Assembly: GCA_043228905.1 (NCBI GenBank)
Contig: JBHGNT010000005.1
Coordinates: forward strand, 24,304,001 to 24,368,000
Direction of reading: 5' to 3'
DNA from: Azolla caroliniana
Lineage: Eukaryota > Plantae > Polypodiophyta
DNA length: 64,000 nucleotides
Shown: positions 4,616 through 62,570 of the stretch, one piece after another
How the letters are laid out: every line of letters begins with the position of its first letter
Numbering within the stretch: position 1 is the first letter of the stretch
Notes under the pieces: model-generated
What the model saw: only the letters and a program-made list of their open reading frames with translations
Told to the model about the DNA's origin: nothing
Database searches by the model: none
Translations under genes and position numbers: made by a program

Positions 4616-7600
4616 AAACAATAAATACATCAAAACATGTGCCCGTGTGTAAGGGCCGGTTCACGCACACTATCCACCAATTCCTCCTAGGGACGGTTTT
4701 CTACATGACATCCGCCCCCACCTAACCACGCATCCTCCGGTATGCGCTAGAATAGACTTCTACTGGAGAAGACCGGCCCGTGATTATCTTTCGCTCTCCA
4801 GTTCGCCATCCGCTCTGAACCAGTCATCATCGCCATCCATGCCCTCTGGGTCTGGTTCGTCCTCGTGCCGCTTCTTGAACGCCTTGATCCTCTTCCGGGA
4901 TACCGGCATAGCTATTCTCGTTCCGTAGAGCTCCACAAGATGGTAGGTGCCGTTGTCGTTGGCGCTTGTCACCACGTAAGGCCCGAACCACCTTCTCGCA
5001 AACTTTCGCATTGCCTTGTGCCAATTGTCGAGGCTATTGTCGTAGACCAGAACCCAGTCGCCTTCCTCGATTTTCTTTGGTCGTAGTTAGTGAGTCCGGT
5101 CGAATCGCCCCTTGTTCTTTGTCCTTGCGCACGCAGCTTCGCCGTTGCTCATTCTATGTCCTCCAGTCTTCGCTCGAGTTGTTGGATTCGCGCCGCTAAC
5201 AACTCTTCCCGGCTCATCTCATTTCTCCAGTCCACCGCGGCCCATGAGGAGATCGTTCTCTCCATCGGCATGATCGGCTTCTGCCTGTACATCAGCTCTA
5301 CCGGCATGAACCTGGTTACTGAACTGGGCGTAGTTCGGTCTGTCCACAATGCATAGGGTAGGAGCCGCAACCAGTTTCCGACTTGGCCTCCGCAAGCCCA
5401 TACCAACGCTTTTATGATTGGCCTGTGTCCACGCTCCACCTTCCCGTTTGCCTCCGGATTGTACGCCGTGGTGAGCGAGAGTTTAACCCCTAACCATTCA
5501 AATAGCTCTTCGGCCTCTTGCGCATCCAGTTCTCCACAGTCTGCTACGATCTTCCCTACGCACCCGTACCGACATACCACCTCCTCTATTAGGAACCGAC
5601 ACACGATCGCGGTCATCTTGTTTGGTAATGCTCGGCCCTCCACTTGGTTCGTTAGATCCTCTCGTGCTAGCACCAGGTATCGCATCTGCCCTATCCCTAT
5701 CGGCATTGTCACCAGGTCCACCATCCACTTGAAGTGGACGTTCGGCGAGTAAGTCGGGTGCAGCTCATCTCGATGTTGGACTATGAAATGCATCTAACAA
5801 CTTTCACAAGACGTTACGAACTGATGCACATCCCGGTGTCCGGCCCAAGGACTCTCGTGGTACGCTGTCAACAATGCTTCCTGCTCCTCCTTCCTCGCCA
5901 CTACCTGGAGTGGGACGCCATCTCGCTTCTTCGGGTGCTTCCATATGCTCCCGTCCCGTAGGAAGAATCGATACGCTTTCTTCCAAATCTGGTTAGCCTC
6001 TTCCTTTGTCCATGCCCCGTCCGACACCATCGTTTTCAGGAACCCACCGATCTGGAGCCACTCCCCGTCGTACTTTCTCTCGTCGAACTCGTTACGCGCC
6101 GGAGTGCTCCCCTTCCTCGTCGTCATGTAAGTCGTCCTGAAGAAGTCTACGCCAACTTCCTCGTCATCAAACCTTGCTCTTGAAAGCATGTCAGCCATGG
6201 CGTTGTCTTTCCCTGAGATGTGTCGTATCTCCGGAATCAGGGACTTAATGTACGCTATCCATGGGAGCATTCCCAGGTCTGGCATCGCACATATGGAAAC
6301 AATACCGAAAATCGGTAGGCCATCCGTCTCTATTATTACCTCTGTCCCGATCAGGTAGTCTTTGTCGGCCTTGACCGCCTAAATGATACCCCAGAGTTCG
6401 CGTTTAACCTGGGCATATCCTCGTTGTCGCGCACTAAGTACTTTCGCACCGAACCAGATGGGGACCCTCGCGCGTTCTCATCCTCCTGGTTGATCACCTA
6501 TCTGATCCCGGTCGGACTCGTGTCTACGGTTACATAAATCGAAACGTGTTTATCGTAGACCGCTTTCCAAAGTGTCGGTGTCGCGGCAAGCGCTTCTTTC
6601 ATTCTCCGGACCAACTCCTCATGCTCCTTGCTCCACTCAAACTTACGCCCTTTCTTCGACAACCCGTAGAGTGGCTCCGCGATCTGGGCGTAATGCGGGA
6701 TCCAAATGTGGTAGAACGCGCAAGCTCCCAAGAACCTTCAGACTTCTGTAACCGACTTGCAATCTTCCTTCATCGCGGAGATAGCTTCCACTTTAGCCGG
6801 AGACGGTTTCCGGCCATAAGGCCCACACAAGTGTCCGATGACCATAATTTCTGATTTTCCGAAAGCTGACTTCTCCCCGGAGAAGGTGAACCGCGCGCGC
6901 CTTCTAGTCTTTGCAGCACCTTCTCGCAGTCTCCGATGTGGTCCGAGACAAATTTCCGACACCCGTCCGGTTCGACCGTTTCGTCCTTATCCTCCACCGG
7001 ACATCCCTTGATCGGAATGTCATCCAAAAATGGCATGGTGATGTCCGAGATGCAGTCCCTTAGTACCTTATTCATCGCATTCACCATGTGCGCTACCGAG
7101 TTTGTCCCTCCTTGCAGAAGGGTACACATCCGCACTAGGCCGAGAGGAGTCCACATTGTCGTAATATCCCTGCTCTCAACGGCTAGTTGGAATTGGTCGT
7201 ACCCCAAATACAGGTCCCCGACCAAGTAAATCGACCTTCCGGCAAAGGCCTCCGCGAACTCGTCAATGGTCGGTACAATTCTTGCGTTCCAAATGGTCAC
7301 CTTGTTGACCGGTTGTAGGTCCTCAATAAAGCGCAACGTGCCGTTCTTCTTTGGCACGGTAAACCACCGATTCGAGTATGGGGCACTCGATGGTTCGAGG
7401 GTGCCCATCTCCACCTTCTGCTTTAGCAGTTCCATCAGCTTCGAGATGTGAGCTTTGGGTACTGGAATTGGTTTGAGATTCCACGGCACATGCGGTACCG
7501 TGAAGATAACCATCGGCTCAATGACCGTCGGGTCTACGCACCCGATCTCTTCCGGCGAGAATGCGAAGGCCTTCCCGTGCCTCCCGAGCATTCTCTGAAA

Positions 7601-8705
7601 CCGTTCCTCCTCAACCGGAAGAAAGCCACCCCCACCAACCTTGAGCTCCCGTAGCGTTATGTTGGTGAACCGGTGGCCTATGCCGGCCAGATCCCATAGA
7701 CTTGGGTTCGACGTGACCCCTTTCTTTCGTAACTCGCTGCCCTCTTGCAAGGTTGCTACAATTGGCCTCACCTTCTGGTCCATAGTCTTGTACTTTGTAT
7801 GCACATGGGCCGTCCGATCCGACTCGATCCCTCTTTCGAAGTCGGCGATGACTTTGTACATCCGTTCCGAACTAACCGGAATCGTCTGGTCTTCACCGAG
7901 GCCTTCTTCGAGCACGTTCCTCAGATCTCCCAAGGTATCGTCAAAAGAGACCGCCTCCACGGCGCTGCCTATCACTTCGTCAGGGCCGAGGACTCCGCAC
8001 GCCCTGAGACGTTCCTCTGCCCGCTTCTTCTCCGAGCCACTAATGCTGGTTATTGTACATCCTCCGTTGTCAGAGAACCAAAATTTCCCGTCTATCGTAC
8101 AGGGTTTTGTTGGGTGGCAGGTCCCTCCGGATGGTGCAGACCCGGTATGAACCGGATGAGGAGTACTCGGGTACGGAGAGCCGGATGGTGCAGACCTAGT
8201 ATGAACTGGATGAAGAGACATATTCGTAAATATGTTTCTGAGTGTCCATCGAGGCTATACTTGTAAATAGCCGAAAAGTCATATTAGTATAAATATGACT
8301 TAGGGCAAACTTTTAGTAAGTTGTTGTTGTTCATTTTCTTGTTGGTGCAAGAAAAGAGAGTGTGTGTGTAACTGTACAGAGATAGAGAGAGAGAAAGAGA
8401 AAGAAGTCGTTGCCTCTGTTGTAACCGCCGCCTGTGGCGAAGATCTGTGAGCACGAGGTCGGTGCCTCAGTGAACTCACGGTTGTATATTCTTACATAGT
8501 GACAGTTTGCAGCCTGTGGGCTGCCGTGGTTTTTCCCCTAGTTTGGGGTTTTCCACATGAACCTCCTGTGTATCTCCCTCTTCTTCTTGTCGTGTTTTAT
8601 TTCCCGTTTTCTGTGTATGATCCTAAGCTCGGTTGTGGCCGAGCGTTGCGTATAGGGAGCGTTGAGTTCCCGTCAAGTGGTATCAGAGCGAAATCGACAC
8701 AGAAA

Positions 8706-21410: not shown

Positions 21411-21834
21411 TCCCCCCCGCTTTGATTTCTTCACATCAAATCCACGCATTCTCTCTATGTGTATAGGACTTTACAATACCCTTTAATTCCTACTACCTAG
21501 TACATACCAGTCCTATGCTATTTACATTATGTTTGTACAAGTTTCTTGGTTCGTGTGTATCGGTGCACACATCCATTCGCGCGCGCTTGGCCTCACTTCT
21601 ATTTATGGCCGGAATCCTTCACAACATCCACCCCCACCAAACCGCACACCCTCCAACATGTGCCAAGTAATGTAGCGGTGGATTCCGGCCCAGTCCTTAC
21701 TCTTCCTTTGATCCTTTAGTAATCTGGTCTTCATCCGGCTCCTTGCTTTCGCCTTTCTCCCTATCATCGATCTCCGAGTCTGGTTCTGCTTCGTGCCGTT
21801 TCTTGAAGGCCTTTATCCTTTTCCCCGCAACCGG
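21411..21834 (-). mobile_element. 3' end of another Trp-group Gypsy (integrase tail, PPT, LTR remnant)
   Basis: PVAGKRIKAFKKRHE; PPT 21627-21638; LTR begins TGTTGTGAAGG at 21626. Confidence 0.85.
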
Positions 21835-24800
21835 TGTCGCGTTGTTACGCGCGTGCGTGTAGAAAGAGGCGGGACCACGGGGGTCTCGGACCAAGGAGAG
21901 AGATAGATAGATAGATTATATTATCGTCTTCGGAGGTCAAATATGACCTATGAGAACAGGAATCTGATTACTATAGTTAATAGCTTACAACCGGCAACCT
22001 GGTGATGGACCCGACACGGGGTCCTTCTCACGCACACCGACGACAGCCACACGGCTCGAAGAAACAAAAGGGAAAAGGGGGAAGGAGAGAGATTCTGCTG
22101 GAAGCACACGGGCTGTCCACGAAGCAGAGGCAGGGAACTCCTGACACCCGCAGAGAACGACGATTGGAGGAGAGAGAGAGAGCTCGACACTCGGTTCTGC
22201 AGCAGCACTTCGTCCTCGCCAACGCGCGATCCCCTCTCTCCCTTCTCTCCTCTCCTTAAAATAGTTCCCAAAAAGGGTGCGCTCTCTCCCTAGTCAAATC
22301 GCTTTATTCCCTATCCCTTTTGACAGAGATACGCACAATCCCCTAATAAATGTGTACTACTTAGCATTTACATCAGCCGATCCATTTATGAATCAATATC
22401 AAAATATCAATTCATGCGTCCATCCGTGTAATAGCCGGTTCATGCGCCTTTTTGTCCGATTCCGCCTATGGCCAGTTTTCTTCACGACATCCACCCCCAC
22501 CAAACCGCGCATCCACCGGCATGCGCCAGAGACGGCAGATACCGAAGAAAACTGGCTTCACTCGTCGGTCTCCGATTCTCCGCCGGGCCCGAACTGATCG
22601 TCGTCGTCGCTCCCGCCCGCAGGCTCCGGCTCGTCTTCGAACCGCTTCTTCAACGCTTTGATGCGCTTCCCGGCCACCGGCACCGCTAACTGTGTCCCGT
22701 CGAGTTCTGCGAGGTGGTACGTGCAGTTGTCGTTCACGCTCGTCACCGTGTAGGGCCCGAACCACCTCCTAGCAAACTTTCGCACCGCCTTGTGCTGATT
22801 GTCGAGGCTACTGTCGTACACCAAGACCCAGTCGCCTTCCTCGATCCTCTTTGGTCGCAACCAGTGTGTCCGGTTGAACCGGGCCTTGTTCCGCTCCCTT
22901 GCCGCCACAGCTTTTCCTTCGCCCTTTTCACGTCCTCTGGCCTCCACTCGAGTTGCCGAATTCGCGCCGCCAGCAACTCCTCCCGACTCATCTCGTCCTT
23001 CCAATCTACCGCCGCCCATGAAGAAACCATCTGTTCCACCGGCGTGATCGGCTTCTGTCCGTACATCAGCTATGCCGGCATAAACCCTGTCACCGAACTG
23101 TGCGTAGTTCGGTCCGCCCATAGTGCGTAAGGAAGGAGCCGCGATCAATTCCTGACCTGCCCTCTGCATGCACGCACCAACGCCTTTACGATCGGCCCGT
23201 GCCCACGTTCTACCTTCCCGTTCGCCTCCGGATTGTATGGCGTAGTGAGGGAGAGTTTGACCCCTAGCCGGTCGAACAACTCCTCAGCTTCCCGCGCATC
23301 CAGCTCTCCCCAGTCCGCCATGATCCTCCCGACGCACCCATATCGACACACTACCTCTTCGATCAGGAACCGGCATACCGCCGCGGTTGTCTTGTTCTGC
23401 AGTGCATGGCCTTCCACCTGGTTCGTTAAGTCTTCCCGTGCAAGCAGCAGGTATCGCATCTGTCCTACTCCCATCGGCATCGTCACCAAGTCCACCATCC
23501 ATTTGAAATGGACCGCAGGCGGGTAAGTCGGGTGTAGCTCTTCCCGATGTCAGACTATGGAGAGCATCTGACAACTTTCACAAGTCGTTACGAACCGATG
23601 CACGACCTAGTACAGCCCCGGCCACCAGTTCTTCTCCACGTTCCGCGGTGTCCGGCCCAGGGACTCTCGTGAAATGCCGCCAGCAGTTCCTCCTGTTCTT
23701 CTTTCTTTGCCACTACTCGGAGCAGGATGTCGTTTCTCTTTTTTGGGTGCCTCCATATGCACTCCCGTACTCGGCTCGCCTCTTCTCTCGTCCATGCTGT
23801 GTCCGGCGTCATCGTTCGTAGGAACCTCCCAATTTGGAGCCAGTCCCCATCGTACCTTCTTTCGTCAAATTTGTTAAGCGCCGGAGCGTCCCCTTTCCTC
23901 GTCGTCACGTTAGCCGACCCGAAGAAGTCCTCCCCGACTTCTTCATCATCCAAAACCATGTCGTCTTCGTCGTTGAACCTCGCTCTCGAAAGCATGTCGG
24001 CCATGGTGTTATCCTTTTCGGAGATGTGCCGTATCTCCGAGTTCAGGGACTTAATGTACGCTATCCACCGGAGCATTGCTAGGTTTGGTGTCGCGCATCC
24101 GAAAACCATGCCGAGTATCGGTAGGAAGTTCGTCTCGATGATCACCTCCGTCCCAATCAGATAGTCCTTGTCGGCCTTGACTGCAGAAACGATACCCCAA
24201 AGCTCTCGCTTAACTTGGGCGTATCCTCGCTGCCACTCGCTCAATACCTTCACCCCGAACCGGATCGGGAATCGCACGCCATCCTTGTCCCCCTGACTGA
24301 TTACCCACCCAATCCGGGTCGGGCTCGTGTCCACCATCACGTAAATGGGGACATCCCTGCCATAAACCACTTTACGGAGAATCGGCGCTACCGTAAGCAC
24401 CTCCTATAGTCTCTGTACCGACTCCGTGTGCTCTGTCCTCCACTCAAAGCTACGCCCCTTTTTCAATAGTCCATAGAGGGGTTCCACGACATGTGCGTAG
24501 TGCGGGATCCAGATATGGTAAAACGTGCATGCTCCCAAGAATCTGCGGACCTCCGTGACCGACCCGCAATTGTCCCTCCTCACTGAGATGGCCTCTACCT
24601 TTGCTGGAGATGGTTTCCCAAGATCTCCGACTGCCCGAACGCCGATTTTTCTCCGGAGAAGGTGAGTCGTGCGTTTTCGAGCCTCTGCAGCACCTTCTCG
24701 CAGTCGTTGATGTGGTTCACAAAGAACCTCTGGCATCCGTCTGCCCCGACAGTCTCATCCGCGTCATCCATTGGACACCCCTTTATCGGGATGTCGTCCA

Positions 24801-28031: not shown

Positions 28032-30117
28032 CGCTGTGGTGAGCGAAAGTTTGACTCCTAGCCGGTCGAACAGCTCTTCGGCCTCTTCTGCGTCCAACTC
28101 ACCACCGTCAGCCACGATCTTCCCCACGCACCCGTATTGGCATACTACGTCCTCAATCAAAAACCGGCACACGGCTGTCGTCGTCTTGTTCTGCAAGGCT
28201 CAGCCTTCAACCTGGTTCGTTAGATCTTCCCGAGCCAGCACCAGATACCGCATCTGTCCTACCCCCATTAGCATCGTCACCAAATCCACCATCCACTTGA
28301 AGTGGACGGTCGGAGGGTAGGTCGGGTGAAGCTCGTCCCAATGTCGGATCATAGAGTGCACCTGACAGCTTTCGCAAGACGTCACGAACCGATGCACGTC
28401 CCGGTATAGTCCCGGCCACCAGTACTTCCCCTTTAGCCTTTCGAACGTGGCCCACGTTCCATGGTGTCTAGCCCACGGGCTATCGTGGTACGCCGCCAGC
28501 AAATCCTCCTGTTCCTCCTTCTTCGCCACCACTCGGAGTGGGATGTCGTTCCTCTTCTTCGGGTGCTTCCATATGTATCCGTCCCAGAGAAAGAATCGGT
28601 AGGCTTTCTTCCGAATTCGGTTGGCCTCGTTCGTTGTCCATGCCGCGTCCGGTGTCATTGTTTTCAGGAACCCGCGGATCTGCAGCCACTCCCCGTCGTA
28701 CTTGCTCTCGTCGAAATCGTTAAGCGTTGAAGATCATTCCGTGCCGGTTGTTACGTAAGCCGCCTTGAAGAAGTCCACGTTGACTTCCTCGTCCTCTGAA
28801 ACCATGCCGCCCTCGTTTTCGAACCTCGCCCTTGAAAGCATATCGGCCATGGCATTGTCTTTCCCGGAAATGTGTCGTATTTCTGGATTCAAGGACTTGA
28901 TATACGCTATCCACCTGAGCATTGCCAGGTCCGGCGTCGCGCATCCGGAAACCATGCCAAGGATCGGCAGGCAGTCCGTCTCGATAATTACCTATGTCCC
29001 GATCAGGTAGTCTTTATCGGCCTTTACCGTCGAAACGACACCCCAGAGCTCGCGTTTAACCTGGGCGTATCCTCGTTGTCGCTCGCTGAGGACCTTCGCG
29101 CCGAACCGGATCGGGGAACGCATGCCGTCCTCATCCTCTTGGTTGACGACCCATCCGATCCCGGTCGGACTCGTGTCTACCGTTACGTAAATTGGAGTGC
29201 TCTTTCCGTAGACAGCCTTTCGTAGCGCTGGAGCCGCAGCAAGTGCTTCCTTCATCTTCCAGACAGACTCCGTATGCTCGTCTCTCCACTCAAATTTTCG
29301 CCCCTTTTTCAGCAACCCGTTGTCGTGAAGAAAACCGTCCCTAGGCGGAATCGGCGCACCAAGGCGTGGGAACCGGTTCTTCGCGCGCGCACGCTCCAAG
29401 TTGTACATAGAAGAGAGTTAGGAGGATAATCGGCAGGAACGGGCCCTAACACGAGTGGAGACAAAAACCGCGCGAACAGTCTCTTCGGTGGCGCGCGCGA
29501 GCTAAGGAACTGCACGAGTCGGCGGCGTAACTACGCGGATGCGTGAAGAACGGAGCGGATCCCTGTTCGAAAGGGACAGGGAATAAAGCTGACAGGACGG
29601 CCTGCTCGTCGGCCTATATAAGGAGCAGGAAAGAGCTGTTGCAGGGATCTCGCGCGGAGAGGACGAAGTGCTGTCGGACCGTTTCTGGACGCTTCTCTCT
29701 CTGTTTTCTTCCTTCTTGAGCTCCATAGCTTTCTTGTGCAGGGTTCCGGGGAGGCTCGCGCTGTTTCGAGGAACGCCCGAGTGCTTCCGGCAGCACCTCC
29801 GACCTGCTACCCCTTTTGTGCGTCGAAGCGAACAAGCATCGGCATCTGTTCGCCGGCCTGTTCGGCTGTAGCCAACCTGTGCCCCATCGAGGGTTGTAGT
29901 CGTGTTAGCCATTTTCTTAATATACATATTTAGTCATTCGCATCTGTCTGTGTCGGTGTTTGTTCGCGTTCTCCGTGCTGAAGGGCCGTGTCCCTGTGTA
30001 TCCCCGGTCCTGCGTAGCCGGTTCTCTCTCTTTCTCCTCCCTCGCTTGCTCTTTGGTTCGAGACCCCCGCGGTCCCGCCTCGTTTCCACACGCACTTGCA
30101 TAATATCTCGACATCTT

Positions 30118-30134
30118 TGGTGAACCCGACGTGA
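30118..30134 (+). promoter_or_regulatory. Primer-binding site complementary to the 3' end of plant tRNA-Trp
   Basis: TGGTGAACCCGACGTGA is the reverse complement of TCACGTCGGGTTCACCA (plant cytosolic tRNA-Trp 3' end, from memory). The same PBS occurs in four copies. Confidence 0.85.
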
Positions 30135-30157
30135 AGGAGGCGGCAGAAGAGCAGAAG

Positions 30158-32242
30158 ATGAGGGGGTCGGATCTTGCAGAGGCCATGGCTTCGGCCGTGG
30201 ATCGGATTGTAAACGCGCGCGAGGGCACCGGTGCCCTCGACAGAGCCATTGAGGCGGTCGTCGGCACGATCGGCCGGTTCGATGGGAAGGATGCCACGAA
30301 GTATTTGGCGTCCTACGGTGCAGAGATGCTGATGCGGGACATTCCGGAAGAAAGGCGTCTTGCCGGATTTCCCCGAGTGGCGATGCCGAGCATCCATGCG
30401 GAGGTGCTCGAGGTGCGGGCGGAGAGCCGTACCTGGGAGGAGTTCGAAGGTCGGCTCCTAGAGAAATACGGGCTGGACGACGCGCTCCGGCTTTCGAAGC
30501 GAAGGTTCATGGAATGGGTGGAGTCCTCGGGGAAGGGAAGAAACGCGTTGGCACTCCTCCGGGAGTTCGAGGAAAGCTTTGCGCGCCTTTCGGCGCTCGA
30601 CCGAACCATCCTGGACACGAGCCGGGTCTTGCTGTTTGTCAAGTCGGTCGACGAGCGGGATCGGGAGCAAGTGGGCCTCTTGCTGGAAACCGAAGACGGG
30701 CTCACTACCGACTGGGCGGCTGTCAAAAAAGTATGTGGCCGTTTCGACAAACGGCGAGAATGGGCGGACAACGGGGCAACCGGGTCGGGCTCGGTCGCAG
30801 GAAGGGAGCTCGAACCAGCGCCACAGGTGCGAAAGGAAGAGACCCGAGAGTGGTTGGAAACTGGTTCGGCTTCGACCGGCGTAGTCAGAGGCTCAACCGG
30901 AGGAGCGGCGCTGGAGGAATTGACGAGGGCGATAAAGGACCTCCAAATCGCGCAAGCCCGAAGGGAAGGTGGCGAACCGGCTCGTGACCGACGGCCGGCG
31001 GCAGGAAACAGGTGCATGTGGTGCGATGAAGTCGGCCACATTCGGAAGGACTGCGGCGACTTCGCGGAGGCGCTGAGGAACAGGGTGGTGTACCTGTGGG
31101 AAGGACGGGTGCATGCCAGCGACACCCGAAGGGCTCTGAGCCGAAACGACGGGCGAGGTGGTATGAAAGGGTTGATGGAAGAGGCAGCGGCCCGACATGC
31201 GGAAACCGTCCACTACTCGGCGTCGGCCGGCATTCGAGTCGGGGGCGGCGAGGCCCGAAGGGAAAGCAAAGCCGGATTCTGGCCGACGATGCTGGAAGGC
31301 CTTGCCGGTGCAAGGCTTAAAGGGGAGGAATCGGACCGTGCGGAGAAACGGGTACGGGAGATGACCGGGTGGAGCGACCCGGTCGAGGAAAAGACGGGCT
31401 TCGTGGAAGCCGCTTGCCAGAACTACGAGGCTCTGGTAGAAGAGAAGCGGGTGGGGAAACCCGGGACGACCGGGCCCTCACATCGATACGAGACCCGGTC
31501 CGGGCCACGACGGGACGAAGCCGGCGGGGCCGGTACGCAAGATAGACCCCAGAAGGGCGGGTACCGTCTGGGGACGGAGATAGAAAGGACCACGGACTTA
31601 CGAAAGGTCCTGGAGGAACGGATCCTCGACAGCAAGGAGTTCCACGACTCCATCGTGGACTTGGTGAAACGGAAGAGGCTGTCAACGGAGACCGAACCGG
31701 AAAGACTGGTGGAAGTGCGGACGACGCACCTAGACGACATGGCGCTGGGGGACGAGTGGGCGGAAAGCCACTATTCGAGACCACACTGGGCCCGAGCGAC
31801 CACGGAAACCCCGGTGAAGATCGGCGATGTCCAGGAACCGGTGATAGCTTTGGTGGACCACGGATCGGAGATCAATTTGATGTCCATGGACTTCTATAAG
31901 AAGGGTAAATGGCCGATCAACACCAAGCACGGGTGGAAAATAAGGGCAGCAACGCGCGCCACCGAGGAACTGCACGGGGCCTGTCCGAATGTGCGAGTCA
32001 AGATCGGCGACGTGGAGATTGACCAGCACTTCTTCGTGCAAGAGACGTCTTCACATCCGGTCATACTGGGAGAGCCGTACATCACGGCGGCGCGAATGGA
32101 GACCAAGGTGCTGGACAATGGTTCGGCCTACGCGAGGGTCAAAAGCCAAGACGGGCGCCATTCGGTCCAGTTTCTGACGGTACGGCCGAACCACGAACGT
32201 AACCGCGAATCCCTCGGTTCCGAAAACCGAGAGGATTTTTAG
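30158..32242 (+). CDS. ORF1: Gag, CCHC knuckle and aspartic protease
   Basis: ATG at 30158 (MRGSDLAEAM); CMWCDEVGHIRKDC; ALVDHGSEINLM...VILGEPY; ends REDF-stop. Confidence 0.93.
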   Translation: MRGSDLAEAMASAVDRIVNAREGTGALDRAIEAVVGTIGRFDGKDATKYLASYGAEMLMRDIPEERRLAGFPRVAMPSIHAEVLEVRAESRTWEEFEGRLLEKYGLDDALRLSKRRFMEWVESSGKGRNALALLREFEESFARLSALDRTILDTSRVLLFVKSVDERDREQVGLLLETEDGLTTDWAAVKKVCGRFDKRREWADNGATGSGSVAGRELEPAPQVRKEETREWLETGSASTGVVRGSTGGAALEELTRAIKDLQIAQARREGGEPARDRRPAAGNRCMWCDEVGHIRKDCGDFAEALRNRVVYLWEGRVHASDTRRALSRNDGRGGMKGLMEEAAARHAETVHYSASAGIRVGGGEARRESKAGFWPTMLEGLAGARLKGEESDRAEKRVREMTGWSDPVEEKTGFVEAACQNYEALVEEKRVGKPGTTGPSHRYETRSGPRRDEAGGAGTQDRPQKGGYRLGTEIERTTDLRKVLEERILDSKEFHDSIVDLVKRKRLSTETEPERLVEVRTTHLDDMALGDEWAESHYSRPHWARATTETPVKIGDVQEPVIALVDHGSEINLMSMDFYKKGKWPINTKHGWKIRAATRATEELHGACPNVRVKIGDVEIDQHFFVQETSSHPVILGEPYITAARMETKVLDNGSAYARVKSQDGRHSVQFLTVRPNHERNRESLGSENREDF

Positions 32243-32298
32243 AGAGGACTGCCAAGGCGTGGGGCCGCGACAGTCCGGATGCTCCGGGAAAACCCCAC
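32233..32298 (+). promoter_or_regulatory. Predicted -1 ribosomal frameshift signal (slippery heptamer plus H-type pseudoknot)
   Basis: G_GAT_TTT at 32233-32239, then TAG; stem 1 32246-32253/32269-32276; stem 2 GTGGGG 32259-32264/CCCCAC 32293-32298. Conserved in four copies. Confidence 0.82.
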
Positions 32299-35200
32299 AT
32301 CTGTACGATAAAACCGTGTACAATAGGTAGAAAAATTTGCTTCTCCGACAGCGGAGCATGTACGATGGTCGGCATCGCCGGCCGAGAGAAAACAAAGACG
32401 GAGGGGAGACTTCGAGCGTGCGGAGTTCTCGGCCCTGACGAAGAAATCAACGGAGCCGTGGAGACAGTCTCCTTCGACGACACCTTAGGAATGCTCGGGA
32501 AGGTAGTCGAAGGAGACCTTAACGGAGACCGGACGATACCGGTATGGTCCGAAGAAATGTACGAAGTCATCGCGGGCTTCGGTCGAGGGCTCGAGTCGGA
32601 ACGGACGGCCCGAGTTAGCACCAAGTACAAGACTGTGGACCGGAAGGTGAGGCCAGTTGCGGCGCCCTTACCGGAGGGCAGCGAATCCCGAATCAAAGGG
32701 GTTGCATCGGACCCCAGCTTACGAGATCCGGCCTGCATAGGACACACCTTCACCAACGAGATGCTCCGCGAGCTGAAGATCGGTGGGGGCGGGTTCCTAC
32801 TGCCGGCGGAGGAAGACCGGTTTCGGAGAATGCTCGGAAGGCACGGAAAAGCCTTCGCATTCTCACCGGAGGAAATCGGGTGCGTAAACCCGACGATCGT
32901 AGAGCCGATGGTGATATTCACGGTACCGCATGTACCGTGGAATCTCAAGCCAATTCAGGTTCCGAGAGCTCACATCCCGAAGTTGATGGAGCTGTTGAAG
33001 CAGAAAGTTGATATGGGCATTCTCGAGCCGTCGAGCGCCCCGTATTCAAACCGATGGTTTACCGTACCAAAGAAAAACGGATCGTTGCGCTTCATTCAGG
33101 ACCTGCAGCCGGTCAATAGAGTGACCATTCGGAACGCAGGGATCGGACCGACCATAGACGAGTTCGCGGAGGCCTTCGCCGGAAGGTCGATCTACTCGGT
33201 CGGTGATCTATACTCAGGGTACGACCAGTTCCAGCTAGCCGTGGAGAGCAGAGACATTACGACGATGCGAACTCCCCTCGGCCTAGTGCGGATGTGTACG
33301 CTGCCGCAAGGAGGGACCAACTCGGTGGCCCACATGGTGAATGCAATGAACAAGGTGCTGAGGGACTGCATCCCGGACATCACCATGCCGTTTCTAGACG
33401 ACATCCCGATCAAGGGGTGCCCGGTAGAAGAGAAGGACGAGACGATCGGGCCGGACGGATGCCGGCGATTCGTGGTGACGCACATCGACGACTGCGAGAA
33501 GGTGCTGCAAAGGCTAGAGGGTGCGAAGCTCACCTTCTCGGGGGAGAAGTCAGCCTTCGGGCAGTCGGAAATCATGGTGGTCGGACATTTATGTGGACCA
33601 TATGGCCGGAAACCGTCTCCGGCAAAGGTAGAAGCCATCTCCGCGATGAAGCCTGATTGCAGCTCGGTCACGGAAGTACGAAGATTCTTGGGAGCATGCG
33701 CCTTCTACCACATATGGATCCCGCATTACGCGCACGTCGCGGAGCCGCTGTACGGATTATTGAAGAAAGGGCGAAGATTCGAATGGCTAGACAAGCACAC
33801 GGAGTCGGTCCGGAAGCTGAAGGAGGCTCTTTCGGCAGCACCGGCGCTCCGAAAGGCCGTCTACAGGAAGGGCACCCCAGTGTACATAACGGTTGACACG
33901 AGTCCGACCGGAATCGGGTGGGTCGTCAACCAAGAAGACGAGGACGGCAATCGGTTTCCGATCCGATTCGGCGCGAAGGTCCTCAGTGAGCGGCAGCGAG
34001 GATACGCCCAGGTTAAACGCGAACTCTGGGGTATCGTTTCGGCGGTGAAGGCCGACAAGGACTATCTGATCGGGGCAGAGGTAATCATAGAGACGGATTG
34101 CATGCCGATTCTCGGCATGGTTTCCGGATGCGCGACGCCGGACCTGGCAATGCTCAGGTGGATAGCGTACATCAAGTCCCTGGACCCGGAAATACGACAC
34201 ATTTCCGGGAAAGACAACGCCATGGCCGACATGCTTTCAAGGGCTAGATTCGATGACGAGGGCGGCATGGTTTCGGAGGACGAAGAGGTCGGCGTGGACT
34301 TCTTCGAGGCGGCATACGTAACAACCGGCGGGACGAGCACTCCGGCGCTTAACGACTTCGACGCGAGCAAGTACGACGGGGAGTGGCTGCAGATCGACGG
34401 GTTCTTGAGGACAATGGCGCCGGATACGTCATGGACGAAAGACGAGGCCAACCGGATCCGGAAGAAAGCGTACCGGTTCTTTCTCCGGGATGGCTATCTA
34501 TGGAAGCACCCGAAGAAGAGGGACGGCGCTCCGCTCCGGGTGGTGGCGACGAAGGAGGAACAGGAGGAGCTGCTGACGGCCTACCACGACAGCCCTTGGG
34601 CCGGACACCGTGGAACTTGGGCCACGTTCGAGAAGATAAAGGAGAAGTACTGGTGGCCGGGACTGTACCGGGACGTGCATCGATTCGTGACAACTTGCGA
34701 GAGCTGTCAGATGCACTCCGTGGTCCGACACCGGGACGAGCTTCACCCTACGTACCCTCCGACCATCCACTTCAAATGGATGGTAGATCTGGTGACGATG
34801 CCAATGGGGGTAGGACAGATGCGGTACCTGGTCCTGGCGCGGGAGGATCTAACGAACCAGGTGGAAGGCCGGGCCCTTCCCAACAAAACGACCGCGGCCG
34901 TATGTCGGTTCCTAATCGAGGACGTGATATGCCGGTACGGGTGCGTCGGGAAGATCGTGGCTGACCGAGGGGAATTGGACGCCGAAGAAGCCGCGGAGCT
35001 GTTCGACCGGCTGGGAGTCAAGCTCTCGCTCACCACTGCGTACAATCCGGAGGCGAATGGAAAGGTGGAGCGCGGACACGGACCGATCGTCAAGGCGCTG
35101 GTTCGAGCATGCGGGGGCCAAGTCGGTAACTGGCCGCGGCTGCTACCTTATGCTTTGTGGGCAGACCGGACCACGCACAGTTCGGTAACCGGGTACATGC

Positions 35201-35721
35201 CGACGGAGCTCATGTTCAGCCAGAAGCCGATCATGCCGATGGAACGGACGATCTCCTCGTGGGCAACGGTCGACTGGAAGGACGAGATGAGCCGGGAGGA
35301 GTTGTTGGCCGCGCGTATGCGACAGCTCGAGCGGAGACCGGAGGACGTGGAACTGGCTGCGGAGAAGCTCCGGGTGGCGAGGACAAAGAACAAAGCCAGG
35401 TTCGACCGAACGCACCGGCTCCGACCGAAGAAAATCGAAGAAGGTGACTGGGTGCTCGTCTACGACAGCAGCCTCGACAACCAGCACCGAGCTACACGGA
35501 AGTTCGCACGAAGGTGGTTCGGGCCTTACGTGGTACGGAGCGCCAATGACAACGGGACATATCACCTGGCGGAACTAGACGGCACGAGAATGGCGATACC
35601 GGTTGCAGGGAAACGGATCAAAGCGTTCAAGAAGCGACACAACGACGAGCCAGACCCGACTCTCCTAGTCAGCAGTGACGAACGATCCGAAAACGAGGAA
35701 GAACCGACGGGCGAGGAATGA
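32239..35721 (+). CDS. ORF2 (-1 frame): RT, RNase H and integrase
   Basis: The frame is open from the slip site through the 1118-aa ORF 32365..35721. Motifs: DLYSGYDQ, LPQG, FLDD, VDTS (RNase H), HHCC, D-D-E, GPY. Confidence 0.95.
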   Translation, partial: LERTAKAWGRDSPDAPGKPHICTIKPCTIGRKICFSDSGACTMVGIAGREKTKTEGRLRACGVLGPDEEINGAVETVSFDDTLGMLGKVVEGDLNGDRTIPVWSEEMYEVIAGFGRGLESERTARVSTKYKTVDRKVRPVAAPLPEGSESRIKGVASDPSLRDPACIGHTFTNEMLRELKIGGGGFLLPAEEDRFRRMLGRHGKAFAFSPEEIGCVNPTIVEPMVIFTVPHVPWNLKPIQVPRAHIPKLMELLKQKVDMGILEPSSAPYSNRWFTVPKKNGSLRFIQDLQPVNRVTIRNAGIGPTIDEFAEAFAGRSIYSVGDLYSGYDQFQLAVESRDITTMRTPLGLVRMCTLPQGGTNSVAHMVNAMNKVLRDCIPDITMPFLDDIPIKGCPVEEKDETIGPDGCRRFVVTHIDDCEKVLQRLEGAKLTFSGEKSAFGQSEIMVVGHLCGPYGRKPSPAKVEAISAMKPDCSSVTEVRRFLGACAFYHIWIPHYAHVAEPLYGLLKKGRRFEWLDKHTESVRKLKEALSAAPALRKAVYRKGTPVYITVDTSPTGIGWVVNQEDEDGNRFPIRFGAKVLSERQRGYAQVKRELWGIVSAVKADKDYLIGAEVIIETDCMPILGMVSGCATPDLAMLRWIAYIKSLDPEIRHISGKDNAMADMLSRARFDDEGGMVSEDEEVGVDFFEAAYVTTGGTSTPALNDFDASKYDGEWLQIDGFLRTMAPDTSWTKDEANRIRKKAYRFFLRDGYLWKHPKKRDGAPLRVVATKEEQEELLTAYHDSPWAGHRGTWATFEKIKEKYWWPGLYRDVHRFVTTCESCQMHSVVRHRDELHPTYPPTIHFKWMVDLVTMPMGVGQMRYLVLAREDLTNQVEGRALPNKTTAAVCRFLIEDVICRYGCVGKIVADRGELDAEEAAELFDRLGVKLSLTTAYNPEANGKVERGHGPIVKALVRACGGQVGNWPRLLPYALWADRTTHSSVTGYMPTELMFSQKPIMPMERTISSWATVDWKDEMSREELLAARMRQLERRPEDVELAAEKLRVARTKNKARFDRTHRLRPKKIEEGDWVLVYDSSLDNQHRATRKFARRWFGPYVVRSANDNGTYHLAELDGTRMAIPVAGKRIKAFKKRHNDEPDPTLLVSSDERSENEEEPTGEE

Positions 35722-35780
35722 AGACGGGCCGGTTTTCTCCGTCCCAACTCTCTTGGCGCATATCGGAGGATGCGCGGTTA

Positions 35781-35792
35781 GGTGGGGGCGGA
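35781..35792 (+). promoter_or_regulatory. Polypurine tract
   Basis: GGTGGGGGCGGA directly before the 3' LTR. Confidence 0.85.
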
Positions 35793-37430
35793 TGTCGTGA
35801 AGAAAACCGTCCCTAGGCGGAATCGGCGCACCAAGGCGTGGGAACCGGTTCTTCGCGCGCGCACGCTCCAAGTTGTACATAGAAGAGAGTTAGGAGGATA
35901 ATCGGCAGGAACGGGCCCTAACACGAGTGGAGACAAAAACCGCGCGAACAGTCTCTTCGGTGGCGCGCGCGAGCTAAGGAACTGCACGAGTCGGCGGCGT
36001 AACTACGCGGATGCGTGAAGAACGGAGCGGATCCCTGTTCGAAAGGGACAGGGAATAAAGCTGACAGGACGGCCTGCTCGTCGGCCTATATAAGGAGCAG
36101 GAAAGAGCTGTTGCAGGGATCTCGCGCGGAGAGGACGAAGTGCTGTCGGACCGTTTCTGGACGCTTCTCTCTCTGTTTTCTTCCTTCTTGAGCTCCATAG
36201 CTTTCTTGTGCAGGGTTCCGGGGAGGCTCGCGCTGTTTCGAGGAACGCCCGAGTGCTTCCGGCAGCACCTCCGACCTGCTACCCCTTTTGTGCGTCGAAG
36301 CGAACAAGCATCGGCATCTGTTCGCCGGCCTGTTCGGCTGTAGCCAACCTGTGCCCCATCGAGGGTTGTAGTCGTGTTAGCCATTTTCTTAATATACATA
36401 TTTAGTCATTCGCATCTGTCTGTGTCGGTGTTTGTTCGCGTTCTCCGTGCTGAAGGGTCGTGTCCCTGTGTATCCCCGGTCCTGCGTAGCCGGTTCTCTC
36501 TCTTTCTCCTCCCTCGCTTGCTCTTTGGTTCGAGACCCCCGCGGTCCCGCCTCGTTTCCACACGCACTTGCATAATATCTCGACACTGTATAACGGCTCC
36601 GTGACGTGAGCGTAATGCGGGATCCATATGTGGTAGAACGCGCACGCTCCCAAGAACCTCCGAACCTCCGTGACCGAGCTACAGTCGTTCTTCATCGCGG
36701 AGATGGCTTCTACCTTAGCCGGAGACGGTTTCCGGCCGTACGGCCCACATAGGTGTCCGACAACCATGATCTCTGATTGCCCGAAGGCCGACTTTCCCCC
36801 GGAGAAGGTGAGCCTCGCGCCCTCCAACCTTTACAGCACCTTCTCGCAGTCATCGATGTGCATCGCCACGAATTTCCGGCATCTGTCCGGTCCGATTGTC
36901 TCGTCCCTTTCCTCCACCGGGCATCCCTTGATTGGGACGTCGTCCAAAAACGGCATGGTGATGTCCGGGATACAATCCCTCAGCACCTTGTTCATTGCGT
37001 TCACCATGTGAGCCACCGAGTTCGTCCCTCCTTGCGGTAGGGTACACATCCGTACTAGGCCGAGAGGAGTTCGCATTGTCGTGATGTCTCTGCTCTCTAC
37101 GGCAAGTTGGAATTGATCATACCCCGAGTAGAGATCACCGACCGAGTAAATCGACCTTCCGGCGAAGGCCTCCGCGAACTCGTCTATTGTCGGTCCGATT
37201 CCGGCGTTTCGAATGGTCACCTTGTTGACCGGCTGCAGGTCTTGAATAAAGCGCAGCGTGCCGTCCTTCTTCGGCACGGTAAACCACCGATTCGAGTATG
37301 GGGCACTCGACGGTTCGAGGTTTCCCATCTTGACCTTCTACTTTAACAGCTCCATCAGCTTCGGGATGTGAGCTCTGGGTACTGGAATCGGTTTGAGACT
37401 CCACGGCACATGCGGTACCGTGAATATCAC

Positions 37431-37686
37431 CATCGGTTCCACGACTGTCGGGTTTACGCACCCGATCTCCTCCGGTGAGAATGCGAAATCCTTCCTGTGC
37501 CTTCCGAGCATTCCCCGAAAACGGTCCTCTTCCGCCAGCAGTAGGAAGCCGCCCCCACCATCGGTTCCACGACTGTCGGGTCTACGCACCCGATCTCCTC
37601 CGGTGAGAATGCGAAATCCTTCCCGTGCCTTCCGAGCATTCCCCGAAAACGGTCCTCTTCCGCCAGCAGTAGGAAGCCGCCCCCAC
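37431..37686. repeat. 128-bp tandem duplication inside the G4 pol ORF
   Basis: CATCGGTTCCACGACTG recurs at 37431 and 37559. Confidence 0.93.
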
Positions 37687-40481
37687 CGATTTTGAGCTCG
37701 CGCAGCGTTATGTCGGTGAACGTGTGTCCTATGCGGGCCGGATTTCGTAAACTCGGGTCCGACGCAACCCCCTTTATTCGCAACTCGTTGTCCTCCAGCA
37801 AGGGAGCCGCGACTGGCCTCACCTTCCGGTCCACAGTCTTGTACCTCGTGTCCACCCGGGCCATCCGATCCGACTCGAGCCCTCTACTGAAGTCCACGAT
37901 GACTTCGTACATCTTTTCCGAACATACCGGAATCGTCCGGTCCTCTTTAAGAACTCCTCCGACTACCTCCCGCAGCTCCCCCAAGGTATCGTCGAAAGAG
38001 ACCGCCTCCACGGCTCCGTTGATTTCCTCTCCGAGGTCGAGGACGCCACATGCCCGAAGTCGCTCCTCCGCCCTTCTCTTCTTCCGGCCAACAACGTCGA
38101 CTATCGTACACCCTCCGTTGTCAGAGAACCAAAATTTCCTACTTATAGTACAGGTCTTCTTCGCTATCATACACTTGTGGGGTTTTCCCGGAGTGTACGG
38201 ACTATCGCAGCCCCAAGCCTTGATAGCCCTCTTCAAAAATCCTCCCGGCTTTCGCCCCCGAGGGTCTCGCGGTTCCTCTCATGGTTCGGTCTCACCGTCA
38301 AGAACTGGACCGAGTGACGCCCATCCTGGCTCTTGACCCTTGCATAGGCCGAGCCGTTGTCCAACACCTTGGTCTCCATCTGTGTTGCCGTGATGTACGG
38401 TTCTCCGAGTATAACCGGATGCGAGGACGTCTCCTGCACGAAGAAGTGCTGGTCAATCTCGACATCGCCGATCTTTACTCGTACGTTTGGGCAGGCTCCA
38501 TGCAGTTCTTCGGTGGCTCGCGTCGCCGCCCGTATTTTCCACCCGTGCTTGGTGTTGATCGGCCATTTTCCCTTCTTATAGAAGTCCATGGACATCAAGT
38601 TGATTTCTGAACCATGGTCCACCAACGCCACCACCGGTTCATGAACATCTCCGATCTTCACGGGGGTCTCCGTGGTCGCTCTGGCCCAGTGCGGCCTGGA
38701 ATAGTGGCTCTCCGCCAACTCGTCTTCCAGCGCCATGTCCTCTATGTGCGTCGTTCGCACCTCCACCAGCTTCTCCGGTTCTGTCTCTGTCGACAGCCTC
38801 TTCCTCTTCACCAAGTCTACGATGGAGTCGTGGAACTCCTTCTTGGCAATCCCGAGCACTTCCTTCAGCGATAGCTCCACCTTGCTGTCGAGGATTCGTT
38901 CTTCCAGGACCTTTCGCAGGTCCGTGGATCTTTCGATTTCTGAGCCCAGCCGGTACCCACCCTTCTTGGGATTATCCTGGGCGCCGGTTACAATGGCCTC
39001 ATTCCGTCTTTGCCCGAATCGAGTTTCATATCGCTACGAGGGCCCGGCCTCTCCGGTTTTCCCTACTCGCTTGTCCTCCACCAGAGCCTCGTAGTTTGGA
39101 CAAGCGGCTTCGACAAAGCCCGTCTTTTCTTCCACCGGGTCACTCCACCCGGTTACCTCCCTGACCCGTTTTTCCGCACGGTCCACCTCTTCTTTCCTCA
39201 GCCGTGCGCCGGCGAGGCCTTCCAGCATCGTCAGCCAGAACCCGGCTTTGTTCGTCTTCGGGGCCTCGCCACCTCCAACCCGAATACCAGCTGACACCGA
39301 GTAGTGGACGGTCTCCGCGTGACGAGCCGCCGCCTCCTCCATCAGCCTTTTCATACCCCCTCGCCCGACGTTCAGGTTCAGGGCCCTTCGGGTCTCGCTA
39401 GCGTGCACCCGACCGTTCCACAAGTACACCACGTTGCTTCTCATCGCCTCGGTGAAGTCCCCGCAGTCCTTCCGGATGTGCCCAACCGCGTCACACCACA
39501 TGCACCTGTTTTCAGCCAGAGGTCGTCGGTCACGGGCTGTTCGCCACCATCCCTCCATGCCTGGGCGATCTTGAGATCCTTTACCATCCGCGTCAGCTCC
39601 TCTAGAGCTGCTCCCCCGGACGAGCCCTTGATCATGCCGGTTGAAGCCAATCCGGTCTCGAGCCAATCTTGGGTCTCTTCCCTTCGCGTTGGTGGTGTTG
39701 GCTTGAGCTTCTTTGCTGCGACAGAGCCCGCCCCTGTCGATCCTTTGTCAACCCATTCCCGCCGTTTGTCGAAACGGCCACAGACCCTTTTCACCACGGC
39801 CCAGTCGTCCGTCAGCCCGTCATCAGTCTCCAATAGGAGGCCTACCTGCTCCCGATCCCGCTCGTCAACCGACTTAACAAACAATAGGACACGGCTTGTG
39901 TCCAGAACGGTCCGGTCAAGCACCGAGAGGCGCGCGAAGCGTTCCTCAAACTCCCGGAGGAGCACTGACGTGTTCCTTCCTTTGTCGGGGGTCTCCACCC
40001 ACTCCATGAAGTCCCGCTTCGAAAGTCGAAGCGCATCTTCAAGCCCGTATATTTCGAGGAGCCGACCTTCGAACTCCTCCCAGGTCCGGCTCTCGGCCCG
40101 TACCTCGAGCACCTCCGTATGGATACCCAGCATCGCCACTCGAGGGAATCCGGCTAGACGCCTCTCTTCCGGAATGTCCCTCATTACCATCTCAGCCCGG
40201 TAGGACTCCAAGTAGCTCGTGGCATCCTTCCCACTGAACCGGCCGATTGTACCGACAACCGCCTCGATAGCCCTATCAAGGGCGTCGGTGCCTTCGCGCG
40301 CACTCACTATACGGTCTACAGCCGAAGCTATGGCTTCTGCAAGGTCTAACCCCCTCATCTTCTACTCCTCTGCCGCCTGTTCACGTCGGGTTCACCAAAT
40401 ATGTCGCGTTGCTACGCGCGTGCGTGGAGAACGAGGCGGGACCACTGGGGTCTTGGACCGAGGAATAGGTGAGGAAGCGAA

Positions 40482-40520
<39 letters not shown>

Positions 40521-61800: not shown

Positions 61801-62570
61801 ATAAATACATTACAAAAGTCAAGAATATGTCGAATCATCGATTACCACATCTTGCTTTGAATGTTGGATGTAAGCTACAAAAGAATCATAAAAGTAAGAT
61901 TCTCTCATCCGGTTGGGTTGTTGACATAAGGAAATGGTTTAGAAGATGGGGTTTGGATGATCTTTTAAAGCTTTCGGGCAATGCTATGCAATATGTAATG
62001 ATTGAGGAAAGGTTGGTGGAATCATTAAGGATGAAGTGAGAAGATGCTAAGAGGACAAAGCTAGAATACTACATTGCAAATGTCAACCCTCAATGTTGGT
62101 CTCAATATAAAGCAAGAATGTCTATTGATCGTATCCAACCTTATTTCATTACCAATATGAGTAGTAATGCTCGTAGAGCCCTTACACTACTTCGCACTCA
62201 ATCTCACAAGTTAGGTATTGAAGTTGCATCATGGTATCAAAATGTAACTAATTTGAAGACATGCAAAGTATGCAACGAAGGCATGGTAAAGGATGAGTGT
62301 CAATTGCTCTTCACATGCTCGACATATAGTGCAATTCGTTCAAGATATGCTAGCATACTAAGAGGGAGTGATAACGTAAGTGCCATACTTAAGACACCAC
62401 CGAGAAGTTGAGCTCATATGTGTTTGCTTTATTCACACATAGAGATTGTGTGCTTCAATGTATGAATACCCCTTCTTAGGAAGGAGACATATCAAGAACG
62501 CATGTATACTCTGGTCCCATGGGTCAAAATTGGCCTCTTTATGGGCAATAAAAATTCTAATTCTAATTCT
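58894..62570 (+). mobile_element. 5'-truncated degenerate LINE, RTEX/CR1-group-like
   Basis: ORF1 tail (HRVG..AIVC..LKGTSFFVMEDRT); APE domain (MFWNC, IFLTETW, MGDFNAR); RT (FVDFKKAFD, GVKQGCPLSP, LYADD); C-terminal CKVC..FTC finger; (ATTCTA)n tail at 62553-62570. Confidence 0.9.

What the first reader, a model, noticed from the sequence alone, without database searches (positions are those of the whole stretch)
35726..35813. Covarying stem pairs the 3' UTR with the U3 terminus and encloses the PPT
Seen: just after the pol stop, each subfamily has a motif complementary to its own LTR start. The pairs are GGGCCGGTTTTCTCC/GAAGAAAACCGTCCC (35726-35740/35799-35813), GCCAGTTTTCTTC/GAAGAAAACTGGC (13/13; 22471-22483/22544-22556) and GGCCGGAATCC/GGATTCCGGCC (11/11; 21607-21617/21680-21690), with a similar pairing at 4690-4780. 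An inner hairpin with an 8-nt loop also covaries (GCGCAT..ATGCGC versus GCACAT..GTGTGC). Sequence changes while pairing is kept. Inference: a cis-acting RNA or ssDNA element for plus-strand priming, strand transfer or packaging. It could also be a distal frameshift enhancer, as in luteo- and dianthoviruses.
Basis: partly seen in the sequence, partly recalled or inferred. Interest (0 to 1): 0.78.

Follow-up and report, generated by a model that had tools for sequence, protein, structure and literature searches.

The report
Conserved hairpin flanks retrotransposon second-strand primer
A whole group of plant jumping genes keeps a small hairpin, with paired base changes, a fixed 17-18 bases before its end repeat and right against the purine tract that starts the second DNA strand, even in copies that lack the copying enzyme gene, so it is likely a signal that helps the copying enzyme cut out or use that primer rather than a frameshift enhancer.

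Summary
The pairing is real and covaries. It lies at the 3' end of a young Ty3/gypsy element (29321-36585) with Phygy-clade hallmarks. Two layers emerged from 140 copies (own genome plus metagenome relatives, RT identity 53-98%). (1) An inner 6-bp hairpin abutting the polypurine tract (PPT) is the deeply kept core: 5 of 6 pairs change on both sides, at least 10 separate switches on a tree, 3' end 17-18 nt before the LTR in 48 of 53 clusters. (2) The outer 3'UTR/U3 stem is lineage-specific (cognate versus swapped pairs 0/20000); distant lineages lack it and fold U3 locally instead (16 of 23). The frameshift-enhancer idea fails: no loop/frameshift pairing signal, a local covarying pseudoknot already sits at the -1 shift site, and 14 of 14 pol-less elements lack that site yet most keep the hairpin. 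Best reading: a cis signal for reverse transcription at the PPT (pause/positioning); packaging signal is the main rival. Function untested. I found no description in ten literature searches; the scan's earlier notes did not hold this structure.

The parts
35726..35740 (+). 5' arm of the outer stem (3' UTR, 4 nt after the pol stop); lineage-specific
   Evidence: 13 of 15 WC pairs with 35799-35813; cognate/swapped test; pair counts
35741..35755 (+). pyrimidine-rich linker; predicted loose pairing with the PPT
   Evidence: pyrimidine fraction 0.74 versus 0.28 upstream, but no better than shuffled linker
35756..35775 (+). inner hairpin, 6-bp stem and 8-nt loop; the deeply conserved core
35776..35792 (+). 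17-nt G-rich polypurine tract between hairpin and LTR
   Evidence: sequence; 4410 exact PPT+LTR-start pattern matches in the genome, control 0
35799..35813 (+). 3' arm of the outer stem = U3 nt 7-21
35793..36585 (+). 3' LTR (TG...CA)
   Evidence: 99.87% identical to 29321-30113
29321..30113 (+). 5' LTR; flanks CCGT / CTGT (4-bp NCGN-type target duplication with one change)
30118..30135 (+). primer-binding site complementary to the 3' end of host tRNA-Trp
   Evidence: genomic tRNA-Trp(CCA) genes found and read
30158..32242 (+). gag-protease ORF with one CCHC zinc knuckle
   Evidence: translation; knuckle motif scan; no Pfam hit for this ORF, protease label from sequence motif and position only
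32233..32298 (+). slippery heptamer G_GAT_TTT, gag stop, and a predicted H-type pseudoknot (stem 1 32246-32253/32269-32276; stem 2 32259-32264/32293-32298)
32203..35721 (+). pol ORF in the -1 frame: RT, RNase H, integrase; no chromodomain
22471..22556 (-). same structure in a second subfamily (inner hairpin 22507-22526)
21607..21690 (-). same structure in a third subfamily (inner hairpin 21644-21663)
4690..4780 (-). decayed copy of the structure (inner hairpin 4728-4747)

Best explanation
These Phygy-type retrotransposons keep a covarying hairpin directly against the 5' edge of the polypurine tract and a second helix over the start of U3, and the pair likely acts in cis during reverse transcription to help the element's reverse transcriptase/RNase H generate and use the plus-strand primer. 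Shown: the structure, its covariation, its fixed distance from the LTR start, its retention in pol-less elements, and two alternative ways of pairing the U3 start (with the 3' UTR in the near lineage, locally in distant ones). Inferred: RT moving from U3 through the PPT would stall at the hairpin base, favouring an RNase H cut near the PPT/U3 junction; the nearly wobble-free stem could also fold on the freed minus-strand DNA and bound the PPT hybrid; the U3 helix would give a pause just after plus-strand initiation, helping primer removal and a precise LTR end. The conserved loop G's may be a protein (NC or RT) contact.
For: Spacing: hairpin 3' end 17-18 nt before the LTR in 48 of 53 clusters; an open offset scan (8-69 nt) peaks only at 17-19 (26, 40, 17 of 53; at most 4 elsewhere); 33 of 38 metagenome copies, found through RT peptides and so not selected on the PPT, are at 17-18, while pol-stop-to-hairpin distance runs from -167 to +213 and arm-to-hairpin linker from 5 to 22. 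The two most distant relatives (RT 53-54%) carry a hairpin of unrelated sequence at the same place. Retention: 12 of 14 pol-less elements keep all 6 pairs, like 28 of 31 autonomous ones; three have LTRs 99-100% identical; 10 pol-less rows form one long-branch gag clade (SH-aLRT 100, quick tree). Wobble: 7 G-U in 261 paired cells of the inner stem against 24 in 209 of the RNA frameshift stem (Fisher p 1.4e-4, cells not independent); in metagenome rows 0 G-U and 4 A-C against 15 G-U and 0 A-C; 102 of 102 pairs WC in 17 young copies. U3 start paired in both lineages by different partners. Literature: 3'-directed RNase H cuts fall 17-18 nt behind the HIV-1 polymerase site and occur mainly at hairpin pauses (PMC3627382, passages); a pause at +12 coordinates plus-strand initiation with primer removal (PMC3185700, passages).
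Against: No functional data. The 17-18 nt ruler is HIV-1's; Ty3 RT, a closer relative, has about 13 bp between its sites (PMC5371799, one passage), so a simple stall at the stem base would cut inside the PPT unless the geometry differs in Phygy RT. Fixed spacing may only mean the hairpin abuts a conserved PPT block. Strand is not resolved for the whole structure (z plus -2.2, minus -2.5) or the outer stem (cognate gap -5.9 versus -6.1). A SHAPE study of HIV/SIV judged PPT pairing a likely by-product of G content (PMC3616985, passages). Loop sequence conservation (G5 46 of 49, G7 47, G8 49) fits a protein-binding packaging site as well. Lack of wobble also fits template-switch copying of one arm from the other.
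Confidence: 0.5

Rival explanations
1. The hairpin is a 3' packaging or nucleocapsid-binding signal: its G-rich loop is bound by the Gag zinc knuckle and selects the RNA (including pol-less RNAs) for particles; the outer stem only presents it.
For: Kept in pol-less elements that have no knuckle of their own (0 of 14) and must be mobilised in trans; loop reads GG(A/U)G, like the HIV-1 psi GGAG tetraloop bound by NC (PMC7599994, passages; the GGUG loop of SL2 is recalled, not found in that paper); autonomous Gag has a CCHC knuckle; Ty3 needs both UTRs for packaging (PMC11381356, passages).
Against: A packaging hairpin need not sit at a fixed 17-18 nt; the most distant relatives keep position but not loop; loop position 4 is A in 7 of 49 and the loop may close as a triloop (two C-G to U-A changes, inconclusive); the stem avoids G-U, unlike an RNA-only stem of the same elements.
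Confidence: 0.22
2. Mutational by-product: template switching during reverse transcription copies one arm from the other (quasi-palindrome correction), so arms track each other without selection, above all the outer stem.
For: Few wobble intermediates in the inner stem; the outer stem comes and goes between lineages; two of five whole-structure measures on the near-lineage alignment are not above shuffles (63 and 369 of 500).
Against: Position and loop are held across RT identities of 64-98% while flanks take many indels; active families keep bulges and mismatches in the outer stem that copying would erase; at least 10 separate switches at 5 different pairs.
Confidence: 0.12
3. RNA export or stability element in the 3' UTR, like the CTE/RTE/MTE elements of simple retroviruses and mouse retrotransposons (recalled; MusD MTE seen only as a cited title in PMC3362945).
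For: Same genomic position (3' UTR before the PPT); needed in cis by pol-less elements too.
Against: Core is only 20 nt; fixed spacing to the LTR is not expected; no Rfam family matches.
Confidence: 0.08
4. 3' half of a Ty3-like bipartite primer-binding site: the hairpin's 3' arm pairs with the freed T-arm of the primer tRNA-Trp and circularises the RNA.
For: A G-U-rich helix with tRNA-Trp nt 43-55 recurs in 36 of 53 clusters (mean 11.2 nt versus 9.0 +/- 0.7 for shuffled tRNA); Ty3 precedent (PMC11381356, passages).
Against: Its energy (-10.0) is mid-range among 24 T-arm segments of unrelated host tRNAs, several better; it would destroy the covarying stem; a better complement of the T-arm already lies in U5.
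Confidence: 0.05
5. Distal frameshift enhancer: the apical loop kisses the structure 3' of the slippery site 3.5 kb upstream, as in BYDV and RCNMV.
For: The element does use a predicted -1 shift at G_GAT_TTT before a stop (pol in -1 frame in 24 of 28); one family has a 6-bp complement at shift+49; viral precedent (PMC5009743, passages).
Against: Cognate -8.38 versus swapped -8.18 +/- 0.17 (2506 of 20000, 56 elements) and no recurring site; no conserved loop complement anywhere in 34 full elements; a complete local pseudoknot covaries; motif absent in 14 of 14 pol-less elements that keep the hairpin.
Confidence: 0.03

Closest known systems
Phygy clade, non-chromovirus Ty3/gypsy (Neumann et al. 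2019, PMC6317226; passages and supplement table row)
   Same: 4-bp NCGN target duplication, tRNA-Trp PBS, no chromodomain or extra ORF, compact coding interior; relatives in liverwort and fern proteins.
   Different: The paper lists ORF organisation as not determined and, in the passages seen, no RNA structure; element here is 7265 bp, below its 7656-9968 range; pol-less derivatives are not mentioned in what I saw.
Base-paired PPTs of HIV-1/SIV (PMC3616985, passages) and Ty3 (PMC11381356, passages)
   Same: PPT predicted in a paired context near the U3 start.
   Different: There the PPT itself pairs, with low confidence or as a presumed by-product; here a separate hairpin with compensatory changes abuts the PPT at fixed spacing and a second helix covers U3.
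Pause-directed RNase H cleavage and the +12 plus-strand pause of HIV-1 RT (PMC3627382, PMC3185700; passages)
   Same: Template hairpins stall RT and direct cuts; a pause after initiation aids primer removal.
   Different: No conserved hairpin dedicated to PPT selection is described in the passages seen; Ty3-type RT spacing is about 13 bp (PMC5371799).
HIV-1 psi (SL3) GGAG tetraloop (PMC7599994, passages)
   Same: Short hairpin with GG(A/U)G in the loop; Gag with CCHC knuckle.
   Different: Psi lies in the 5' leader; here 3' UTR, 8-nt loop, single-knuckle NC; binding untested.
Long-distance frameshift elements of BYDV, RCNMV, PEMV2 (PMC5009743, passages)
   Same: 3' UTR stem-loop some kb downstream of a -1 shift site.
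   Different: No loop/bulge complement; local pseudoknot instead of bulged stem-loop; kept where no shift site exists.

Membership tests
Phygy clade (host element) | 4-bp target duplication with NCGN preference | tested here: met
   20 of 29 full elements have an exact 4-bp duplication, all with central CG; the other 9 keep CG on at least one side
Phygy clade (host element) | PBS for tRNA-Trp | tested here: met
   Phygy 81% tRNA-Trp
Phygy clade (host element) | Ty3/gypsy order PR-RT-RH-INT, no chromodomain, no extra ORF | tested here: met
   Pfam: RT, RNase H, integrase, no chromodomain
Phygy clade (host element) | phylogenetic placement with REXdb Phygy references | not testable with these tools
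   no REXdb sequences on hand; nearest named proteins are from Riccia and Adiantum
Long-distance frameshift element (BYDV/RCNMV type) | apical loop complementary to a bulge 3' of the shift site, covarying | tested here: not met
Long-distance frameshift element (BYDV/RCNMV type) | occurs only with a shift site | tested here: not met
   0 of 14 pol-less elements have the motif; 12 of 14 keep the full stem
Ty3-type bipartite PBS | 3' sequence specifically complementary to the primer tRNA | tested here: not met
   not better than unrelated tRNA arms
Retroviral psi/NC-binding hairpin | exposed G-x-G loop on a short stem | tested here: inconclusive
   G5, G7, G8 conserved but may pair inside the loop
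Retroviral psi/NC-binding hairpin | NC binding and packaging dependence | not testable with these tools
   needs experiment
Known Rfam RNA family | match at gathering score | tested here: not met
   0 hits on L001; two chance hits E 1.4 and 5.5 far below cut-off

The most novel reading that the evidence does not exclude
[quoted passage not shown] This would be a dedicated structural PPT-selection signal, which I did not find described for any LTR retroelement.
Probability: 0.3. Interest if true: 0.7.

Novelty: new variant of a known kind. Interest (0 to 1): 0.5.

Why it matters
How RT recognises and cuts out the PPT primer is still described as largely unknown at molecular level (PMC3185511, abstract passage). 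Here evolution supplies a ready set of compensatory variants, a fixed spacing and pol-less elements that keep the signal, so a 90-nt template makes the question directly testable with purified enzymes. It also defines a minimal cis signal of a very abundant plant retrotransposon clade (at least 4410 PPT-LTR junctions in this genome) and, as a side result, a covarying -1 frameshift pseudoknot in plant LTR elements, for which a 2016 review reported only +1 arrangements as of a 2003 survey (PMC5009743, passages).

Tried and rejected
Loop partner search: no perfect complement of loop nt 3-8 recurs at a homologous place in 34 full elements; loop versus frameshift region null. Palindromic kissing loop: the ACCGGT palindrome is only in the T variants, 31 of 49 clusters have A at loop position 6, so a self-dimer loop was not pursued. 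Origin from the tRNA-Trp D-arm (looks alike in the GCGC variant): the GCAC variant fills the deep branches and GCGC arises repeatedly. tRNA T-arm pairing: rejected against control tRNAs. Specific PPT sequestration: compositional only (cognate 4888 of 20000 in the near lineage; 866 of 20000 in the far one). Strand by folding z-score or outer-stem gap: unresolved; the 26 G-U versus 59 A-C count on the outer stem depends on an imperfect register and was not used. Triloop versus tetraloop: inconclusive. Expression: no RNA holder listed; three contig runs laid on the stretch gave nothing on RNA ends. Rows dropped: 2 of 100 fetched loci not oriented; of 80 metagenome loci 46 reached the integrase end, 36 junctions were found by pattern and 3 added by hand; L206, L210, L242, L243 (non-homologous hairpins) were left out of loop, wobble and tree-switch counts; 18 of 59 rows lacked enough integrase for the tree; four own loci whose shift site belonged to another element or lay over 4 kb away were left out; L215's shift region was dropped from A4. 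The gag tree is the quick, unfinished version and recombination between families may move 3' ends. A genome-wide count of junctions with the hairpin was not obtained. Not-in-print claim rests on searches (open-access library only; older subscription papers and most supplements unseen).

Full report
Setting. The finding lies at the 3' end of a young LTR retrotransposon at 29321-36585 (+): LTRs 99.87% identical, PBS at 30118 complementary to the host's tRNA-Trp, a gag-protease ORF ending at 32242, and a pol ORF (RT, RNase H, integrase, no chromodomain) in the -1 frame ending at 35721. Full-length relatives in the genome have 4-bp duplications with central CG (20 of 29 exact). These features match the Phygy clade (PMC6317226, passages and supplement row). 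Named protein relatives come from a liverwort and a fern. The PPT-plus-LTR-start pattern has 4410 exact matches in the genome, control 0.

Observation. All cited pairings are present and three of four window copies fold better than shuffles. To test covariation I fetched the first 100 listed junctions with 8.3 kb each (98 usable) and 80 metagenome loci found by RT peptides (39 usable 3' ends), giving 140 sequences in 53 clusters.

Layer one, the inner hairpin. Of 102 own-genome copies 74 have 6 of 6 Watson-Crick pairs and 23 have 5; of 36 metagenome copies 28 have 6. On 49 distinct cluster rows 94% of cells pair, 5 of 6 pairs change on both sides, and no shuffle of 500 reaches the count of doubly changed cells. 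On an integrase tree at least 10 separate pair-to-pair switches are needed among 37 rows. The hairpin ends 17-18 nt before the LTR in 48 of 53 clusters; an open scan of offsets 8-69 peaks only at 17-19. Flanking distances vary widely. The two most distant relatives have a different hairpin at the same place.

Layer two, the outer stem. In 27 own-genome clusters each arm pairs best with its own U3 (-17.8 versus -13.0 +/- 0.7; 0 of 20000); 11 of 14 pairs show double changes, though only 69% of cells pair and two of five measures do not beat shuffles. In 23 distant clusters there is no such stem (9341 of 20000); instead the first 34 nt of U3 fold on themselves in 16 of 23, against 1 of 32 near-lineage rows. 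So the U3 start is paired in both groups by different partners. Pairing of the PPT itself with the linker is compositional only.

A natural experiment. Fourteen LTR-bounded elements encode a gag-like protein but no pol; three have 99-100% identical LTRs; the ten placed in a gag tree form one long-branch clade (quick tree). None has the frameshift motif (0 of 14, against 32 of 33 pol-bearing) or a zinc knuckle, yet 12 of 14 keep all six inner pairs and all show an outer duplex of -12 kcal/mol or better. The structure is therefore needed in cis for mobilisation, not for making Pol.

Frameshift enhancer rejected. Loop pairing to the 150 nt after the slippery site is no better for cognate than swapped partners (2506 of 20000, 56 elements); no loop complement recurs anywhere. 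The shift site has its own pseudoknot: stem 1 96.8% paired with 6 of 8 pairs doubly changed (0 of 500), stem 2 cognate -10.8 versus -9.1 +/- 0.3 (0 of 20000), pol in the -1 frame in 24 of 28.

Mechanism. Fixed spacing to the PPT/U3 junction, survival of position after loss of sequence, helices on both sides of the PPT, and near absence of G-U wobble in the inner stem compared with the RNA-only frameshift stem (7 of 261 versus 24 of 209; metagenome rows 0 G-U/4 A-C versus 15/0; 102 of 102 WC in young copies) point to a role while the region is being copied. For HIV-1 RT, hairpin pauses trigger RNase H cuts 17-18 nt back (PMC3627382, passages) and a +12 pause aids PPT removal (PMC3185700, passages). 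I infer a pause/positioning signal for plus-strand primer generation and use (0.5). Against it: Ty3 RT spans about 13 bp (PMC5371799), strand is unresolved for the outer stem, PPT pairing in HIV/SIV was judged incidental (PMC3616985), and nothing was assayed. The main rival is an NC-binding packaging signal (0.22): the loop holds GG(A/U)G, like the HIV-1 psi loop (PMC7599994). Template-switch copying (0.12), export (0.08), 3' tRNA binding (0.05; rejected against control tRNAs) and frameshift enhancement (0.03) follow.

Novelty. No Rfam match. Ten searches of the open library listed no paper on this structure; I read passages only, of PMC6317226 (plus supplement rows), PMC5009743, PMC7599994, PMC11381356, PMC3362945, PMC3185700, PMC3616985, PMC3627382, PMC5371799, PMC3185511, PMC1142308 and PMC6088434. 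The scan's earlier notes hold no look-alike of this stretch; several describe another lineage in this genome with a small hairpin before a tRNA-like plus-strand site, an unchecked lead that a hairpin before the plus-strand primer may be more general. Verdict: real, well-supported, undescribed cis structure of a known kind; function inferred. Interest 0.5.

Noticed in passing
window 32233-32298 (+); also 25966 and 38242 and 13470 on the - strand: Slippery heptamer, gag stop and a covarying H-type pseudoknot kept across the clade: a predicted -1 frameshift between protease and RT in plant LTR elements.
   Followed up: yes
L071, L074, L075, L086, L093, L094, L128, L138, L150, L151, L154, L158 (G000:C1): Recently active pol-less derivatives with a divergent gag-like ORF (up to 1421 aa in L094, whose stop falls in the PPT), no zinc knuckle, one clade.
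   Followed up: partly
window about 30085-30100 (U5) and 35 full elements: A CACGC/AACGC motif 10-30 nt before the PBS in 33 of 35 elements, complementary to the freed T-arm of tRNA-Trp, like a primer activation signal (label recalled); no control run.
   Followed up: partly
window 2300-2385 (-): PBS fused to the outer-stem arm with the inner hairpin deleted, between two LTRs 84% alike; the junction pattern has 1 match in the genome, so a dead remnant.
   Followed up: yes
window 28032-29320 and 36588-40517 (-): The young element sits inside the pol of an older relative; the window holds several nested gypsy and copia elements.
   Followed up: no
L207, L208, L218: The pol stop codon lies inside the PPT, so the conserved hairpin overlaps coding sequence.
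   Followed up: no
L084, L112 versus L065: Apparent recombinants: frameshift region of one family with the 3' end of another.
   Followed up: no
G000:C8 17.80-17.82 Mb and C16 4.99-5.11 Mb: Tandem arrays of tRNA-Trp-like 3' ends at about 1.2 kb spacing.
   Followed up: no
window 59878-62039 (+): Broken RT of non-LTR type in the AT-rich end of the window (Pfam RVT_1; type inferred).
   Followed up: no
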